From a virus (Duplodnaviria > Heunggongvirae > Uroviricota > Caudoviricetes): 31,991 nt of DNA. Below are positions 21,427 through 26,328 of this stretch, in pieces. The DNA lies in IMG/VR virus record IMGVR_UViG_2563366883_000019, positions 1 through 31,991 of that record, one strand, 5' to 3'. The position numbers and the translations under genes were made by a program. The notes under the pieces were generated by a model. That model had not been told where the DNA came from, ran no database searches, and saw only the letters and a program-made list of their open reading frames with translations. The first letter of the stretch is position 1; every line of letters starts with the position of its first letter.

Positions 21427-21502
21427 TATTAGGTAAAACATTAACGTTGTTTTAAATTGTTAATAATTATCAATTTAATATTAATGTTTGGAGTATAAAA
21501 GC

Positions 21503-21877
21503 ATGAGAAAATCCCCTTTGGCATGGTATACGGATGTTCTTTTTAATAACTACTTCAATTATTCAGGGCGAGCCAGTCGAAGAGAGTTCTGGTGGTATTA
21601 TCTGTTTAATTTAATATTCTTGGGAGTTCTTTTTTTTATCGGATATACATTAGATAATACTGGCATTAGTTATGGGTTTTATATACCTTGCGTTTACGTA
21701 TTAGCTACGATTATTCCATCCATTACATTGAAAGTCCGCAGACTCCATGATATTGGGTTAAGTGCTTGGTACTTGTTTATCTGGTGCATTCCGTATATTG
21801 GTGGCTTTATATTGTTCGTTATGTACTGTATCCCGTCAGAAAAAGGGGATAATAAATACGGTGCATATAGTATTTAA
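21503..21877 (+). CDS. DUF805-family inner-membrane protein (YhaH/YhaI-like, about 124 aa)
   Basis: RREFWWYY and RRLHDIGLSAW motifs with multiple TM segments; preferred ATG at 21503 has GGAG 9 nt upstream (the ORF track frame starts at 21488); low-GC region. Confidence 0.75.
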   Translation: MRKSPLAWYTDVLFNNYFNYSGRASRREFWWYYLFNLIFLGVLFFIGYTLDNTGISYGFYIPCVYVLATIIPSITLKVRRLHDIGLSAWYLFIWCIPYIGGFILFVMYCIPSEKGDNKYGAYSI

Positions 21878-21896: not shown

Positions 21897-22583
21897 TCAA
21901 AAAGTACTGGTTATCTTATCTATTAGATCAAATGTCTTCTCATCAATGTACCAGTACTTTTTATCATCATTTGGGTATTCAACGAAAACCGTCCATAAAA
22001 CCTCTTCCTTTTTAATGAAAGATAAAAGAAAAGTCTCTATATCCTTTGAATTGTCTTTGGGAATAACTGTAATAAATGAAGTCCATTTTTCCAACTTTTT
22101 ACTTTTTATCTGTTTGGCCTCCTTAGGTAGAAAAATTTTAGCATTTGATTCACGTTCCAGTCGGTCTAATAATTGTTTGGCATATATATCAACAGGAACA
22201 CTTATGTCACTTGCTTTATGACGTAATTCAATAGTTGGTGTATACTCGTTCGAAAAATAGAAAACACCATCACTGGGTGATGTTATCAGAGTCTTTTCTA
22301 AATATGTGTATTTGTATGTTATTGGATTAAACCAATAACAGTACCATTCTGGCTTTAATTGCCCGCTATAAGATGTGTTATTATTGTGAACCTTACACAC
22401 AGGATAAATGTTTTCTATATCAGTCCACTTACTTTTATCCTCTTTTTTTTGTGTGTCTATGACGTTTGAGGAGTGTTTTTGGTTGAACACTTGAATATTT
22501 AAAAAAACTAAAAGTATGTTTCCGATAATAGATGCAATAAGCATTTTCTTCAGTTTTGAGTTATCCATATGCATCCCCTTCAT
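21897..22583 (-). CDS. Low-GC hypothetical protein with N-terminal signal anchor (about 228 aa)
   Basis: Preferred ATG at 22583 overlaps the upstream gene's stop (ATGA); the ORF track frame starts at 22592 on TTG. N-terminal TM LIASIIGNILLVFL; Lys/Asn/Tyr-rich composition; no recognised domain. Confidence 0.6.
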   Translation of the reverse strand: MKGMHMDNSKLKKMLIASIIGNILLVFLNIQVFNQKHSSNVIDTQKKEDKSKWTDIENIYPVCKVHNNNTSYSGQLKPEWYCYWFNPITYKYTYLEKTLITSPSDGVFYFSNEYTPTIELRHKASDISVPVDIYAKQLLDRLERESNAKIFLPKEAKQIKSKKLEKWTSFITVIPKDNSKDIETFLLSFIKKEEVLWTVFVEYPNDDKKYWYIDEKTFDLIDKITSTF

Positions 22584-23056
22584 TGTGGACAATTACTCTT
22601 TGTCATAATTATAACTAAGTCATTATATTTCGTGTTTATTATGTTATAATGATATTTGAATATATAATTATACTCCTGCATCATTTTACACTCGCCAGAA
22701 TTTAATTTTTTTTGTATTTCTAGGCTCATTAAGTTTTTAATCTCTTCACCATCAAAAAATGGCGACATATCTTCATTAATCCCATAAATATTATAGTAAT
22801 GATTAAGTGTATTTCCTTCTACGGTTGCAGCAATCCATGTAGTATAATCATCTACTTTAATAGGGAATTTTTTCTTGGATAGTTCATTTTTTAAGTATGA
22901 GGCAATTTTATCTGCATCTTCTTTGTTCGATAAAATATCATCAATTTTATTATCACCGAACTCAGTTGCAATTATCTTTACAAAGATCAGCAGAATAATA
23001 AACATTAATGCTGTTCCTGTTTTTTTTATTGCTCCTAATATTTTGTTTCCTGTCAT
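22580..23056 (-). CDS. Low-GC hypothetical protein with N-terminal signal anchor (158 aa)
   Basis: N-terminal TM ALMFIILLIFVKIIA; translationally coupled to the downstream 228-aa ORF; a TTGACA -35-like hexamer lies upstream; no recognised domain. Confidence 0.6.
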   Translation of the reverse strand: MTGNKILGAIKKTGTALMFIILLIFVKIIATEFGDNKIDDILSNKEDADKIASYLKNELSKKKFPIKVDDYTTWIAATVEGNTLNHYYNIYGINEDMSPFFDGEEIKNLMSLEIQKKLNSGECKMMQEYNYIFKYHYNIINTKYNDLVIIMTKSNCPQ

Positions 23057-23233
23057 CTTGCAAATCTAACATAAAATTTAATGAGTCTTATTAATAAATT
23101 TAATTTCTTATGAGTTGTCAACCTTCCATCAAGCAAACCGTGATCTAACAGCATGACTGTCTGCTTGATATGTGTTGTCGTCAACACAGTACAGTCCTTG
23201 AATACATATAACAAATTTGTTATGTTGATACCT

Positions 23234-23563
23234 ATGAACTACACTATCGAATACTACAGTGAAGAGGTCCGGCTGGAAGTCGATCAGCTTCCATTGAGTA
23301 TGCGTGTCCGATACAAACATCTCATTGAACGTATGAAGGTATACGGCAGCAATCTCGGAGAACCTCATACCAGCGCCTTTGGTGATGGGCTTTTCGAACT
23401 CAGAATTAAAGGCAACGATGGGATTGCACGTGTTTTTTACTGCACTCTGACAGGGAAACGCATCATTATGCTGCATAGCTTCATTAAGAAAACGCAGAAA
23501 ACACCGCCAGCCGAACGCAAAAAAGCTGAAGCCAGAATGAAGGAGGTTAAGCATGACTGGTAA
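23234..23563 (+). CDS. Type II toxin, RelE/ParE superfamily, phage Gp49-like (HigB-type arrangement, 109 aa)
   Basis: Gp49-like motifs (GDGLFELRIKGNDGIARVFY...IIMLHSFIKKTQKTPPAE); 11-nt overlap with the downstream HTH gene; the ORF track frame starts further upstream at 23153. Confidence 0.8.
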   Translation: MNYTIEYYSEEVRLEVDQLPLSMRVRYKHLIERMKVYGSNLGEPHTSAFGDGLFELRIKGNDGIARVFYCTLTGKRIIMLHSFIKKTQKTPPAERKKAEARMKEVKHDW

Positions 23564-23861
23564 ACGCATTACACCTACCATGACACACGACGAAATGGCA
23601 GCCAAATGGATGGAGGATCCGGCTTTCAAAGCAGAATACGACGCCATCGCCGACGAGTTCGCACTGCTTGATGAAATGCTGGCAGCACGAAAAGAAGCTG
23701 GCTTAACCCAGGCTGAAGTTGCCGAACGTATGGGAACAAAAGCGACTGCGATCACCAGAATGGAAAGCAATCTTGCATCAGGTACAAGCGGCCCATCATT
23801 TGCCACACTGAAAAAATTCGCCCGTGCTACAGGGAAAAAACTCCAGATCCGCTTCGTTTAA
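23553..23861 (+). CDS. XRE-family HTH antitoxin (HigA-like, 102 aa)
   Basis: AGGAGG lies 6 nt upstream of the ATG; HTH motif LTQAEVAERMGTKATAITRME; toxin-first gene order. Confidence 0.8.
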   Translation: MTGKRITPTMTHDEMAAKWMEDPAFKAEYDAIADEFALLDEMLAARKEAGLTQAEVAERMGTKATAITRMESNLASGTSGPSFATLKKFARATGKKLQIRFV

Positions 23862-23915
23862 CTCCCCACTACCGCGCCGTCATTCTGGCGGCGCTTTACC
23901 CCAGAGAAATATCAA

Positions 23916-24161
23916 TCACCGGATTACCACATCCCACTCCGGCTCCTGCCATCTCAAATCCGGTGAATCATTTCTCTCAGGAATAACCATTACGTCCTTT
24001 TCCCTTCGCTCCCTTTCTATCGCCATCACAGCCAATGCTGCAACCATGATGTATTTTTGTTCGTCGGTTCCTGTTTCATAACGACGCATGAGGGTAAACT
24101 CGGGGCGATCAGTAACCTCAATGATTTCGTTAATTTCTTTAATTTCGCGAGGAATATCCAT
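23916..24161 (-). CDS. Hypothetical small acidic protein (81 aa); coding status uncertain
   Basis: ATG at 24161 with AGGAG 9 nt upstream; its start codon overlaps the start codon of the divergent plus-strand gene at the CATG palindrome 24159-24162. The ORF track frame extends to 24185. Confidence 0.35.
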   Translation of the reverse strand: MDIPREIKEINEIIEVTDRPEFTLMRRYETGTDEQKYIMVAALAVMAIERERREKDVMVIPERNDSPDLRWQEPEWDVVIR

Positions 24162-24834
24162 GGGTTTAGTCTCCTTTGATATCACATGCCCGCACTGTTT
24201 AAAAGAGCGAGCTGTTATTGAGGCATTTGCCGAAAAACAAATTGAAAAAACACCTTTTTTTAACGTCGCTTTTGTATGCAGAAGTTGTCATCGAGGAGGT
24301 GTTGCTATTGTTGAAATCCCATCAGACCACTATCACGGTCCCATGGCGGAAAGCCAGAAAAAAGACCTCGATATTCTGATTTCAGGAAATAGCCAGTACC
24401 GTTTCCGCAAGATCTATCCTGTGGTCAAAAAAATTACCGCACCAGAATATACACCCCCGGTTGCAGACCGTACTTTTGTTGAGGCAAAAGAGGATTTACA
24501 GAGGAGGCGGTACGACACAGTGGTTATTCTTTGTCGCAGAGTCCTCGATATCTCCACGAAAAAACTGCTCGGCGATGAAGCAGGAAAAGAATCGCTGTCG
24601 CAACGTATTCAGATGATTTACAAAAAAGGCCTGATCACTGAACAGATGAAGGAATGGGCTCATATTGTACGAATTGATGCCAATAAAGCAGTTCATACAG
24701 ATGAAGTTTTCACACCAATTGAGGCAAGCCAGATCCTGAGTTTTACCGAAATGTTTTTAGTCTACGCCTTCACTCTGCCTGCAATGGTGGAAGCCAGACG
24801 TGAACAAAAAAGATCAGATTCAGCCTCTATATGA
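24160..24834 (+). CDS. Zinc-ribbon protein with helical C-terminal domain (possibly DUF4145/HEPN-like, about 224 aa)
   Basis: ATG at 24160 with GAGG 7 nt upstream; CPHC...CRSC zinc-ribbon pair at the N-terminus; C-terminal region contains an R-x7-H segment (RIDANKAVH). Domain assignment is from memory and unverified. The ORF track frame starts at 24088. Confidence 0.6.
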   Translation: MGLVSFDITCPHCLKERAVIEAFAEKQIEKTPFFNVAFVCRSCHRGGVAIVEIPSDHYHGPMAESQKKDLDILISGNSQYRFRKIYPVVKKITAPEYTPPVADRTFVEAKEDLQRRRYDTVVILCRRVLDISTKKLLGDEAGKESLSQRIQMIYKKGLITEQMKEWAHIVRIDANKAVHTDEVFTPIEASQILSFTEMFLVYAFTLPAMVEARREQKRSDSASI

Positions 24835-24866
24835 ATCACTTTTCTGAACACGTAAGCCCCCGTCAT

Positions 24867-25298
24867 TCACGACGGGGAGAACATCAATCCCTCTGCACTC
24901 CCTCGCCAGAATGCCAGCACACGCTGCATCGTTTCGCTGTTACGGCACTCGCGACAAATTGTGTTGTAGCGTCTGTCGTAGCGCCGTATTTCCCCATCTG
25001 GTAATGCCCGGATAAGGTCTGGATCAACGACAACCGGTTTCTTCGACTTTGCCCTTGAGAGTTTTTTGCGGGCATTTTGCCAGTCCTTACGAGCCTGTTC
25101 AGACGGGAATACTCCGTAACCGGAATTGTAAACATCACCACTGGCGGCCAGCTCCATGCATAAACGACCGACAGACGCATGACTGACACCAATTTCATCC
25201 GATAACTGCCGAATCGTGCCTCGTCCGTTAAGGCGTACGAATTCCACGATCAGCCCCTTAATTTTTTCCCGCTCTTCTGGTGTAAATGCTCTTGTCAT
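24867..25298 (-). CDS. Winged-helix/HTH DNA-binding protein of unknown role (143 aa)
   Basis: ATG at 25298 with GGAGGT 5 nt upstream; HTH-like segment TIRQLSDEIGVSHASVGRLCMEL; IS1 lies 36 bp upstream of the start. Confidence 0.6.
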   Translation of the reverse strand: MTRAFTPEEREKIKGLIVEFVRLNGRGTIRQLSDEIGVSHASVGRLCMELAASGDVYNSGYGVFPSEQARKDWQNARKKLSRAKSKKPVVVDPDLIRALPDGEIRRYDRRYNTICRECRNSETMQRVLAFWRGSAEGLMFSPS

Positions 25299-25389
25299 AA
25301 GCACCTCCGGAGATCACTTTGTTGTCGGTGAATGGGTGATGCTGCCAACTTACTGATTTAGTGTATGATGGTGTTTTTGAGGTGCTCCA

Positions 25390-25665
25390 GTGGCTTCTGT
25401 TTCTATCAGCTGTCCCTCCTGTTCAGCTACTGACGGGGTGGTGCGTAACGGCAAAAGCACCGCCGGACATCAGCGCTATCTCTGCTCTCACTGCCGTAAA
25501 ACATGGCAACTGCAGTTCACTTACACCGCTTCTCAACCCGGTACGCACCAGAAAATCATTGATATGGCCATGAATGGCGTTGGATGCCGGGCAACTGCCC
25601 GCATTATGGGCGTTGGCCTCAACACGATTTTACGTCACTTAAAAAACTCAGGCCGCAGTCGGTAA
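25390..25665 (+). CDS. insA: IS1 InsA (91 aa, GTG start)
   Basis: Identical in recognisable motifs to IS1 InsA ([43 protein letters not shown]...). Confidence 0.95.
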
Positions 25666-26087
25666 CCTCGCGCATACAGCCGGGCAGTGACGTCATCGTC
25701 TGCGCGGAAATGGACGAACAGTGGGGCTATGTCGGGGCTAAATCGCGCCAGCGCTGGCTGTTTTACGCGTATGACAGTCTCCGGAAGACGGTTGTTGCGC
25801 ACGTATTCGGTGAACGCACTATGGCGACGCTGGGGCGTCTTATGAGCCTGCTGTCACCCTTTGACGTGGTGATATGGATGACGGATGGCTGGCCGCTGTA
25901 TGAATCCCGCCTGAAGGGAAAGCTGCACGTAATCAGCAAGCGATATACGCAGCGAATTGAGCGGCATAACCTGAATCTGAGGCAGCACCTGGCACGGCTG
26001 GGACGGAAGTCGCTGTCGTTCTCAAAATCGGTGGAGCTGCATGACAAAGTCATCGGGCATTATCTGAACATAAAACACTATCAATAA
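25584..26087 (+). CDS. insB: IS1 InsB frame (expressed as InsAB' transposase by -1 frameshift)
   Basis: InsB motifs ([21 protein letters not shown]...[13 protein letters not shown]); TTAAAAAACTC slippery site at about 25640. Confidence 0.95.
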
Positions 26088-26328
26088 GTTGGAGTCATTA
26101 CCAGGACAGTCGTTTTGTTTTATGTGGGTTAAATGGCAAAACACCAAGCCCATATATTCATGCTGCACGTGAAGTCGTCAGAAGCAACATTGGAGTACAA
26201 CAAATCCATACACTGGCGCAGGCTCTTGAGTTTGCAAGAGAAAATTCCGAGTGCGACTGCCCTGAATGCCAGCACGAAAAGGGAAAAACAACTCACAAAA
26301 CAGCAAACCAGGCAACCTTCCACTGAAA

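What the first reader, a model, noticed from the sequence alone, without database searches (positions are those of the whole stretch)
23916..24834. Zinc-ribbon protein of about 224 aa whose start codon is interlocked with a divergent small ORF at a CATG palindrome
The plus-strand gene (ATG 24160, GAGG SD) encodes an N-terminal CxxC...CxxC zinc ribbon and a helical C-terminal domain that I tentatively relate to DUF4145/HEPN-like folds (it has an R-x7-H segment). On the other strand an 81-aa ORF begins at the same four bases (ATG 24161 down to 24159) with its own AGGAG. Face-to-face overlapping start codons with opposed SDs are very unusual; either one ORF is spurious or the two are mutually exclusive in expression. 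A lone zinc-ribbon/HEPN-like protein beside a toxin-antitoxin pair in a prophage is a good candidate for an uncharacterised single-gene defence or abortive-infection protein.
Basis: partly seen in the sequence, partly recalled or inferred. Interest (0 to 1): 0.6.

Follow-up and report, generated by a model that had tools for sequence, protein, structure and literature searches.

The report
RAZR-like prophage RNase with interlocked partner gene
A prophage gene for a zinc-ribbon/HEPN RNase, a distant relative of the anti-phage protein RAZR, shares the four bases CATG of its start codon with a real small gene on the opposite strand, and this head-to-head overlap is kept in dozens of diverged phages, which suggests a built-in switch between defence and the phage's own lytic growth.

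Summary
The 224-aa plus-strand protein (24160-24834) has an invariant Cys4 zinc ribbon and a DUF4145/HEPN domain with an invariant R-x7-H motif. Its closest characterised relative is the abortive-infection RNase RAZR (PD-T7-4), but the sequence relationship is distant. The 81-aa minus-strand ORF (24161-23916) belongs to an uncharacterised family of 55-85-aa three-helix proteins under purifying selection (dN/dS about 0.22).

In 62 of 63 loci that carry both genes, from Escherichia to Photorhabdus and a Zoogloeaceae MAG, the two ATGs share the same CATG. The RNase gene sits backwards inside the phage early operon, between the replication and nin genes. The small gene is the next gene in that operon.

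I infer a reciprocal antisense switch. The defence gene is expressed in the lysogen. Lytic pR transcription silences it and also expresses the small protein, which may act as a self-immunity factor or regulator. That function is unproven. Orphan copies of the small gene exist where other cargo, including the candidate defence system PDC-M18, replaces the RNase gene.

I rate this a new variant of a known kind, of moderate to high interest.

The parts
24160..24834 (+). Zinc-ribbon/HEPN (DUF4145) protein of 224 aa, here called ZR-HEPN. It has a Cys4 ribbon (C10, C13, C40, C43), a linker/insert at about residues 56-95, and a HEPN domain with R171-x7-H179.
23916..24161 (-). Small conserved protein of 81 aa. 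The core of about 57 aa forms three helices and carries the motif DRPEFTLM-RYE...; the tail is disordered. It is co-oriented with the phage early-right operon.
   Evidence: phrog_8371, E 6.8e-56. Homologues in many Enterobacterales and a Zoogloeaceae MAG. dN/dS median 0.22 and the third codon position the most variable. AF2 pLDDT above 90 for residues 1-50. No Pfam, PADLOC, NCBIfam or PDB match.
24158..24163 (.). CCATGG, the shared CATG in which the two start codons interlock with a 2-nt coding overlap.
   Evidence: Sequence. The same offset occurs in 62 of 63 loci. TTCATGGG is nearly invariant in 25 non-redundant lineages.
24149..24153 (+). Shine-Dalgarno-like GAGGA for the RNase gene. It lies inside codons 3-5 of the small gene.
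   Evidence: An SD-like motif 6-11 nt upstream is present in 23 of 25 lineages.
24171..24175 (-). Shine-Dalgarno-like AGGAG for the small gene. It lies inside codons 4-6 of the RNase gene.
   Evidence: An SD-like motif is present in about 13 of 25 lineages. Leu codon 4 of the RNase gene is CTC in 16 of 20 lineages, which gives antisense GAGGAT.
23874..23894 (+). GC-rich hairpin followed by UUUA, between the convergent higA-like gene and the small gene. It is the likely terminator of the toxin-antitoxin unit, so the RNase gene's promoter must lie inside the small gene.
   Evidence: Fold -17.6 kcal/mol, z -4.4.
24858..24877 (.). Hairpin between the convergent RNase gene and the DUF977/Ren-like gene.
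   Evidence: z -2.3 on the plus strand, -1.9 on the minus strand. It has no U-run, so it would be a weak terminator at best.
23153..23861 (+). Neighbouring toxin-antitoxin pair: a Gp49/RelE-ParE-HigB-like toxin and an HTH_3 antitoxin. This slot is separate and variable, and is not part of the module.
   Evidence: Other toxin-antitoxin types occupy the slot in L136 and L100.
24867..25304 (-). DUF977/Ren-like gene, the last early-operon gene before the antisense RNase gene.
   Evidence: Pfam DUF977, E 1.1e-25. phrog_142, Ren-like.

Best explanation
The locus is a two-gene module in the replication-nin interval of a lambdoid prophage.

**The RNase gene.** The plus-strand gene encodes a RAZR-like protein. 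Its N-terminal Cys4 zinc ribbon is the presumed sensor and its C-terminal DUF4145/HEPN domain is the presumed RNase, with an R-x7-H catalytic pair. By analogy with RAZR, the lysogen makes it. On superinfection a phage protein assembly would activate it to cleave RNA and abort the infection.

**Orientation.** The gene lies backwards inside the phage's early-right operon. The small minus-strand gene is the next gene of that operon.

**What the overlap implies.** The two start codons share CATG, and each ribosome-binding site lies in the first codons of the other gene. The 5' ends of the two mRNAs are therefore necessarily complementary across both translation-initiation regions. I infer a reciprocal antisense switch:
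- In lysogeny the pR promoter is repressed and the RNase mRNA is translated.
- After induction, or during lytic infection by this phage, pR transcription reads antisense through the whole RNase gene. It silences the gene by transcriptional interference and RNA pairing, and it expresses the small protein.
- The small protein most likely completes the shut-off, either as a self-immunity factor against pre-made RNase or as a repressor. Its activity is unknown.

**Shown versus inferred.** Shown: gene reality, domain architecture, conservation of the interlock, and orientation and context. Inferred: RNase and abortive-infection activity, the antisense switch, and the role of the small protein.
For: - **Architecture and fold:**
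- **Link to RAZR:** PADLOC PD-T7-4 matches 16 of 26 homologues, best E 2.8e-7. The family profile hits PDB 9y9c (24 chains, 'DUF4145 domain-containing protein') across linker and HEPN, E 0.094, and hits RPB9-type zinc ribbons including 1QYP. The RAZR paper uses 1QYP for the zinc-finger comparison and 7AE6 for the HEPN comparison, and 7AE6 is the top Foldseek hit here. RAZR has the same R-x7-H spacing, R146/H154.
- **Interlock:** 62 of 63 loci. The reverse search from the small protein finds 31 of 32 loci with the RNase gene abutting.
- **Small gene is real:** dN/dS 0.22; confident three-helix model.
- **Orientation:** the RNase gene is the only plus-strand gene within runs of minus-strand early genes, in the order cI/cro/cII/O/P, then the RNase gene, then the small gene, then ninB...Q.
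- **Defence slot:** the candidate defence system PDC-M18 replaces the RNase gene in L134.
- **Ribosome-binding constraint:** the CTC codon bias preserves an antisense SD.
- **Promoter position:** the hairpin after higA means the RNase promoter lies within the small gene.
- **Precedent:** a prophage abortive-infection system whose self-immunity determinant spans the gene start is known, BstA-aba (PMC8585504).
Against: - No promoter was identified on either strand near the CATG, and there are no transcript data.
- Only about half of the lineages have a recognisable SD for the small gene.
- The small gene persists without the RNase gene in some phages: the E. coli P0095 type, L134 and L142.
- The small gene does not co-vary with the RNase allele: 79 of 81 residues identical against 71%.
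- Clade B and the Burkholderia-phage homologues are also antisense-embedded but lack the small gene. The small protein is therefore not generally required.
- Sequence similarity to RAZR is weak: E 0.0022 for this protein, with the zinc ribbon not aligned.
Confidence: 0.5

Rival explanations
1. Frozen accident at a hotspot boundary. The small gene is an ordinary backbone gene of the phage early operon that flanks a cargo (defence) hotspot. The RNase gene was inserted once, backwards, flush against its start. The CATG overlap has simply been inherited and has no regulatory meaning, and the small protein has nothing to do with the RNase.
For: - The cargo upstream of a nearly identical small gene can be swapped: a 166-aa phrog_25397 protein in the E. 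coli P0095-type phages, PDC-M18 A+B in L134, and a Panacea-domain protein plus a 153-aa protein in L142.
- Homology between the window and the P0095 type breaks at codon 3 of the small gene.
- The small gene is 79 of 81 residues identical beside an RNase allele that is only 71% identical.
Against: - The exact offset survives divergence down to 35% (RNase) and about 25-30% (small protein) identity in 25 lineages, whereas clade B's spacing to its divergent neighbour varies from 32 to 134 nt.
- Outside E. coli the small gene is almost never found without the RNase gene, 31 of 32 loci. In complete E. coli genomes the counts are 37 and 48.
- The small-protein family is tiny: 38 representatives among 1.84 billion proteins. 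That is unlike a generic backbone gene.
- The codon bias keeps an antisense SD.
Confidence: 0.3
2. Toxin-antitoxin pair. The HEPN protein is an intrinsically toxic RNase and the small helical protein is its antitoxin.
For: - The small partner is tightly linked to the RNase gene.
- The locus sits among toxin-antitoxin modules.
Against: - Divergent, mutually antisense genes cannot be co-expressed stoichiometrically the way operonic toxin-antitoxin pairs are.
- RAZR is reported as a single-protein system that is non-toxic even when overexpressed, and it defends when expressed on its own from its native promoter.
- Clade B and the Burkholderia homologues stand alone.
- Orphan 'antitoxins' persist in lytic operons.
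Confidence: 0.08
3. The 81-aa ORF is spurious, an antisense reading frame over the promoter or leader of the RNase gene.
For: - Close homologues found with the single sequence are all from E. coli.
- There is no Pfam family.
- The ORF lies where the RNase promoter must be.
Against: - A profile search finds homologues at 25-50% identity in many genera.
- dN/dS is 0.22 and the third codon position is the most variable.
- The AF2 model is confident.
- Independent annotation pipelines call the ORF.
Confidence: 0.02

Closest known systems
RAZR (ring-activated zinc-finger RNase; PD-T7-4), Zhang et al., Nature 2026, PMC13017515; PDB 9y9c
   Same: - Same two-domain plan: an N-terminal Cys4 zinc ribbon (CPHC first knuckle in both), a linker, and a C-terminal DUF4145/HEPN domain.
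- Same unusual R-x7-H spacing: R146/H154 in RAZR, R171/H179 here.
- Similar size: 219 aa against 224 aa.
- It is the best-matching defence model in PADLOC.
- The HEPN region aligns to the 9y9c chain.
   Different: - Sequence similarity is weak: E 0.0022 against the PD-T7-4 model and 0.094 against the PDB chain, with the zinc ribbon not aligned.
- This protein has about 25 extra residues between the ribbon and the HEPN domain.
- RAZR is a single-gene system that was cloned with 200 bp of upstream sequence. This clade instead carries a conserved divergent small gene interlocked at the start codon and sits antisense in a prophage early operon.
- Activity, trigger and oligomeric state are untested here.
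DS-38 (HEP2, WP_001313577.1) of DefensePredictor, PMC13092281 and its bioRxiv version 10.1101/2025.01.08.631726
   Same: An E. coli zinc-finger plus HEPN single-protein defence system that differs from PD-T7-4 in its zinc-finger domain.
   Different: DS-38 comes from a 1101-nt gene, about 366 aa. It is not this 224-aa protein, and no interlocked partner is reported for it.
BstA-aba, a prophage abortive-infection protein with cognate self-immunity, Owen et al. 2021, PMC8585504
   Same: - It is a prophage-borne abortive-infection system that must be neutralised when its own prophage goes lytic.
- The self-immunity determinant is physically interlocked with the start of the defence gene: 29 bp upstream plus the first 34 bp.
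- A Yersinia prophage that carries this module also carries a BstA_C-domain protein next to cI.
   Different: aba acts as DNA and is not a protein-coding gene. BstA is unrelated in sequence and blocks DNA replication. The self-immunity role proposed here is only inferred.
DUF4145-like HEPN family (Anantharaman et al. 2013, PMC3710099)
   Same: The protein matches PF13643. Zinc-ribbon fusions of this family, and its presence in dsDNA viruses, are listed there.
   Different: That survey does not describe the divergent small partner or the start-codon overlap.
Antisense control in lambdoid phages (OOP RNA against cII; P22 sar against ant). Cited from my own knowledge and not checked here.
   Same: Opposite-strand transcription within the early region is used to switch gene expression between lysogeny and lysis.
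   Different: Those systems use small non-coding RNAs that overlap 3' ends or leaders. Here two protein-coding genes would act as each other's antisense across both initiation regions.

Membership tests
DUF4145 / HEPN superfamily | Match to Pfam PF13643 above the gathering threshold | tested here: met
   E 3.9e-9, 36.9 bits against a cut-off of 23.1, residues 118-197. All 83 homologue clusters carry PF13643.
DUF4145 / HEPN superfamily | Alpha-helical HEPN fold | tested here: met
DUF4145 / HEPN superfamily | Conserved Arg...His catalytic motif | tested here: met
   R171 and H179 are invariant in 26 homologues. The spacing is R-x7-H as in RAZR, not the canonical R-x4-6-H.
RAZR / PD-T7-4 | N-terminal Cys4 zinc-ribbon domain | tested here: met
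   C10, C13, C40 and C43 are invariant. The model has four beta strands in residues 4-52. The profile gives weak hits to RPB9/TFIIS-type ribbons, including 1QYP.
RAZR / PD-T7-4 | Sequence membership: significant match to the PD-T7-4 model or to the RAZR chain over the full length | tested here: inconclusive
   The window protein scores E 0.0022 over model positions 64-158 of 211. Sixteen of 26 homologues match, best 2.8e-7. The PDB chain 9y9c scores E 0.094 over the HEPN region only. The zinc ribbon does not align.
RAZR / PD-T7-4 | Single-gene system that suffices for defence | tested here: inconclusive
   Gene content only. This clade has a conserved interlocked partner gene in 62 of 63 loci, whereas clade B and the Burkholderia homologues are solitary. 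Functional sufficiency is untested.
RAZR / PD-T7-4 | Abortive-infection defence, non-specific ssRNA cleavage, and activation by assembly around phage ring proteins (portal, Gp77) | not testable with these tools
   This needs phage challenge, co-expression, RNA cleavage assays and cryo-EM.
Type II HEPN toxin-antitoxin | Co-directional operon of toxin and antitoxin (MNT or other) | tested here: not met
   The genes are divergent with overlapping starts. The partner has no MNT or other known antitoxin domain.

The most novel reading that the evidence does not exclude
The interlocked pair is a lysogeny/lysis-coupled self-immunity device for a prophage-borne RAZR-like abortive-infection RNase.

The two mRNAs would mutually occlude each other's ribosome-binding sites, so lytic pR transcription turns the RNase off. 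The small three-helix protein would be a dedicated protein inhibitor of the RNase. Orphan copies of the small gene in phages that lack the RNase gene would then act as counter-defence genes against lysogens that carry it.

If true, this would be the first protein or antisense self-immunity mechanism described for a HEPN abortive-infection protein, and a first example of a conserved functional head-to-head start-codon overlap.
Probability: 0.25. Interest if true: 0.8.

Novelty: new variant of a known kind. Interest (0 to 1): 0.6.

Why it matters
Prophage-encoded abortive-infection proteins pose a self-targeting problem. A RAZR-type sensor of portal or recombinase rings should fire when its own prophage assembles virions. 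Very few solutions to this problem are known; BstA-aba is the clearest example.

This locus offers a compact and testable candidate solution. The defence gene is placed antisense in the lytic operon. It is physically interlocked at the start codon with a conserved small gene that is expressed only when that operon fires.

The locus also extends the RAZR-like family to a prophage clade with a distinct zinc-ribbon/linker region. It marks the replication-nin junction as a cargo hotspot, since the candidate system PDC-M18 can replace the RNase gene there. It further provides a rare, deeply conserved case of divergent genes sharing start-codon bases, which bears on how such overlaps are treated in genome annotation.

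Tried and rejected
- **Direct sequence searches.** Searching both proteins against PDB sequences found nothing. Only a family profile reached the RAZR chain, weakly.
- **Promoters.** The consensus sigma-70 scan found no promoter near the CATG on either strand, and my manual inspection found only poor candidates. Leaderless transcripts were considered and rejected, because neither strand has a -10-like hexamer at the right distance and both have SD motifs.
- **RNA families.** An Rfam scan of 22500-26200 found nothing.
- **DS-38.** I checked whether DS-38 of DefensePredictor is this protein. It is not: it comes from a 1101-nt gene, WP_001313577.1. The RefSeq accessions of the two window proteins do not appear in the searchable literature.
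- **Co-transcription with the toxin-antitoxin pair.** I considered that the RNase gene is co-transcribed with the upstream pair and rejected this, because a strong hairpin followed by UUUA lies between them and the toxin-antitoxin slot varies independently.
- **Not possible here.** A prediction of the complex between the two proteins could not be run.

Full report
**1. Observation**

- CCATGG lies at 24158-24163.
- The plus-strand ORF starts at ATG 24160, has GAGGA 6 nt upstream, and runs to 24834 (224 aa).
- The minus-strand ORF starts at the ATG read from 24161 down to 24159, has AGGAG 9 nt upstream, and runs to 23916 (81 aa).
- The two coding sequences overlap by two bases.

NCBI's pipeline annotates both genes with exactly these starts in near-identical E. 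coli prophages and in Shigella phage 75/02 Stx. The window is a lambdoid prophage of E. coli.

**2. The 224-aa protein**

*Link to RAZR.* The closest defence model is PADLOC PD-T7-4. The window protein scores E 0.0022, and 16 of 26 homologues match with a best E of 2.8e-7. PD-T7-4 has been characterised as RAZR. RAZR is a zinc-finger plus DUF4145/HEPN abortive-infection RNase with catalytic R146/H154. It assembles as a 24-mer around phage portal or recombinase rings and then cleaves RNA non-specifically (PMC13017515). The family profile also reaches the deposited RAZR chain, weakly (9y9c, E 0.094, linker plus HEPN). It hits the same RPB9/1QYP-type zinc ribbons that the RAZR authors used for comparison. 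The top Foldseek hit, 7AE6, is the HEPN toxin they used as well.

*Verdict on membership.* The architecture and the unusual R-x7-H spacing are shared with RAZR. Sequence-level membership is borderline, and the ribbon/linker region differs. I file the protein as RAZR-like, a distant relative, not as RAZR itself. It is also not DS-38, another E. coli zinc-finger HEPN system, which comes from a 1101-nt gene.

**3. The 81-aa ORF is a real gene**

A single-sequence search found only E. coli relatives. However, the DNA upstream of distant RNase homologues encodes recognisable homologues on the opposite strand, with the motif S-x-DRPEFTLMQRYE...ALIGKLIEQDR. A profile search then recovered 59 clusters from Yersinia, Serratia, Proteus, Morganella, Klebsiella, Photorhabdus, Xenorhabdus, Tatumella, Arsenophonus and a Zoogloeaceae MAG. 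All are annotated as hypothetical. Only 38 representatives exist among 1.84 billion proteins.

Three results support a real protein:
- The median dN/dS is 0.22.
- The third codon position is the most variable, with entropies of 0.92, 0.75 and 1.39 for positions 1 to 3.
- AlphaFold2 predicts three helices with pLDDT above 90 over residues 1-50 and a disordered tail.

The protein has no Pfam, NCBIfam, PADLOC or PDB match and no informative structural neighbour.

**4. The interlock is conserved**

Sixty-three loci carry both genes. In 62 of them the minus ATG begins exactly one base after the plus ATG, so they share CATG. The loci include 25 lineages less than 90% identical around the start. Among them are Photorhabdus (38% RNase identity) and a betaproteobacterial MAG (35%). 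The octamer TTCATGGG is nearly invariant. The single exception has ATG changed to ATA. One further locus keeps a decayed remnant that still starts at the CATG.

Searching from the small protein instead, 31 of 32 viral contigs carry the RNase gene abutting it. By contrast, a sister clade of the RNase (212-215 aa, N-terminus MAMxSI) has no small gene. It lies divergent from terminase small-subunit genes with spacers of 32-134 nt. The overlap is therefore not a generic by-product of how these genes sit in phage genomes.

An SD-like motif precedes the RNase gene in 23 of 25 lineages and the small gene in about 13 of 25. Leu-4 of the RNase is CTC in 16 of 20 lineages, and its complement forms the small gene's GAGGAT.

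**5. Context**

In annotated relatives the order is cI, cro, cII, O, P/DnaC, (DUF1627, DUF977/Ren-like), RNase gene, small gene, (toxin-antitoxin slot), ninB ... Q. Every gene except the RNase gene and the toxin-antitoxin pair lies on the strand of the early-right operon. The RNase gene is thus a reverse-oriented moron. The small gene is the next gene read by pR transcription after that transcription has crossed the RNase gene in antisense.

A strong hairpin followed by UUUA lies after the neighbouring higA-like gene. This implies that the RNase gene has its own promoter inside the small gene. No consensus promoter was found.

**6. Mechanism (inferred)**

Both genes need leaders that contain their SD, and those leaders lie within each other's first codons. 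The two mRNAs must therefore be complementary across both initiation regions. I propose a reciprocal switch:
- The RNase is made in the lysogen, where it provides defence.
- Lytic pR transcription silences it by interference and pairing, and produces the small protein.
- The small protein may neutralise RNase made earlier or repress its promoter.

The rationale is that a RAZR-like sensor of portal or recombinase rings would otherwise fire on the prophage's own assembly. BstA-aba is a precedent for a self-immunity determinant that straddles the start of a prophage abortive-infection gene (PMC8585504).

**7. Evidence that tempers this**

- The small gene survives without the RNase gene in three settings:
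  - A common E. coli variant (P0095). Its homology to the window breaks at codon 3 of the small gene, and a 166-aa protein of unknown function lies upstream.
  - Locus L134, where the slot holds the PADLOC candidate system PDC-M18 A+B, with E 5e-133 and 1e-69.
  - Locus L142.
- In complete E. coli genomes the small gene occurs in 48 of 5426 and the RNase gene in 37.
- An RNase allele only 71% identical sits beside a small gene that is 79 of 81 residues identical, with flanks about 100% identical. The two proteins therefore do not co-vary.

These facts support the rival view that the small gene is a backbone gene at a hotspot boundary and that the overlap is a frozen accident. I give that rival 0.3. 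It does not explain the exact retention of the offset, the near-exclusive association outside E. coli, or the very small size of the family.

The cargo swap with a candidate defence system supports the defence reading of the RNase gene.

**8. This particular window**

IS1 at 25335-26102 replaces 4.6 kb present in the intact EC2 prophage: DUF1627, the DnaC-like gene, the O-like gene, cII, the adjacent small hypothetical genes and kil. The pR region that would drive the small gene therefore appears to be missing here. If the switch model is right, this defective prophage is locked in the 'defence on' state. That is an inference.

**9. Verdict**

- The DUF4145/HEPN, zinc-ribbon and defence interpretation is supported and can now be tied to RAZR.
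- The 'spurious ORF' alternative is refuted.
- The new element is a deeply conserved head-to-head start-codon interlock between a RAZR-like prophage RNase gene and an uncharacterised small gene of the lytic operon.
- Novelty: new variant of a known kind. Interest: 0.6.

Noticed in passing
window 25335-26102 (IS1; InsA/InsB ORFs at 25390-26087): An IS1 copy replaces about 4.6 kb that is present in the otherwise 99%-identical prophage of E. coli EC2 (L001 14236-18801). The missing genes are DUF1627, the DnaC-like gene, the O-like gene, cII, the adjacent small hypothetical genes and kil. The window's prophage therefore lacks its replication and early-control region and looks defective.
   Followed up: partly
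L136/L137 4001-4675 compared with window 24160-24834: A second E. coli allele of the RNase (P0002) is only 71% identical, and residues 57-140 are the most diverged. The small gene and both flanks are about 96-100% identical. This is a sharply bounded hypervariable core inside the gene, as expected for a sensor region under diversifying selection or for allele replacement by recombination.
   Followed up: partly
L134 1356-2908: In a Photorhabdus/Xenorhabdus-type viral contig, the slot upstream of a nearly identical small gene holds the PADLOC candidate defence system PDC-M18 (A, E 4.9e-133; B, E 1.2e-69) in place of the RNase gene. The replication-nin junction behaves as a defence-cargo hotspot.
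   Followed up: partly
window 23153-23861; L136 3126-3709; L100 4309-5309: The toxin-antitoxin slot next to the small gene holds three different modules in otherwise similar E. coli phages: Gp49-like toxin with HTH, HigB-like toxin with HTH, and RelE with two HTH proteins.
   Followed up: no
L140/L141 5001-5639 and L007, L015, L074-L095: A sister clade of the RNase (212-215 aa, N-terminus MAMxSI) always lies between the lysis cassette and the terminase small-subunit gene, again antisense to the surrounding late operon. It is divergent from three different terS types with spacers of 32-134 nt and has no small partner.
   Followed up: partly
window 21897-23056 (minus strand) and 21488-21877 (plus strand): Two adjacent Lys/Asn/Ile-rich proteins with N-terminal hydrophobic segments (231 aa, phrog_21161; 158 aa, phrog_19308) and a DUF805-like membrane protein lie between the toxin-antitoxin pair and the ORF6N/Ant-like gene. 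They have no PADLOC hit and their function is unknown. They may be further morons.
   Followed up: no
L138/L139 9490-10410: The Yersinia enterocolitica prophage that carries the interlocked module also encodes a BstA_C-domain protein next to its cI-like repressor. One prophage may therefore carry two abortive-infection-type defences.
   Followed up: no
L098 5001-5639 (Burkholderia phage phi644-2): The RNase homologue (33% identity over residues 10-222) is annotated only as a truncated 104-aa 'gp55'. The full ORF appears to be under-called in the GenBank record. It too lies antisense between cII and the replication genes, and it has no small partner.
   Followed up: no
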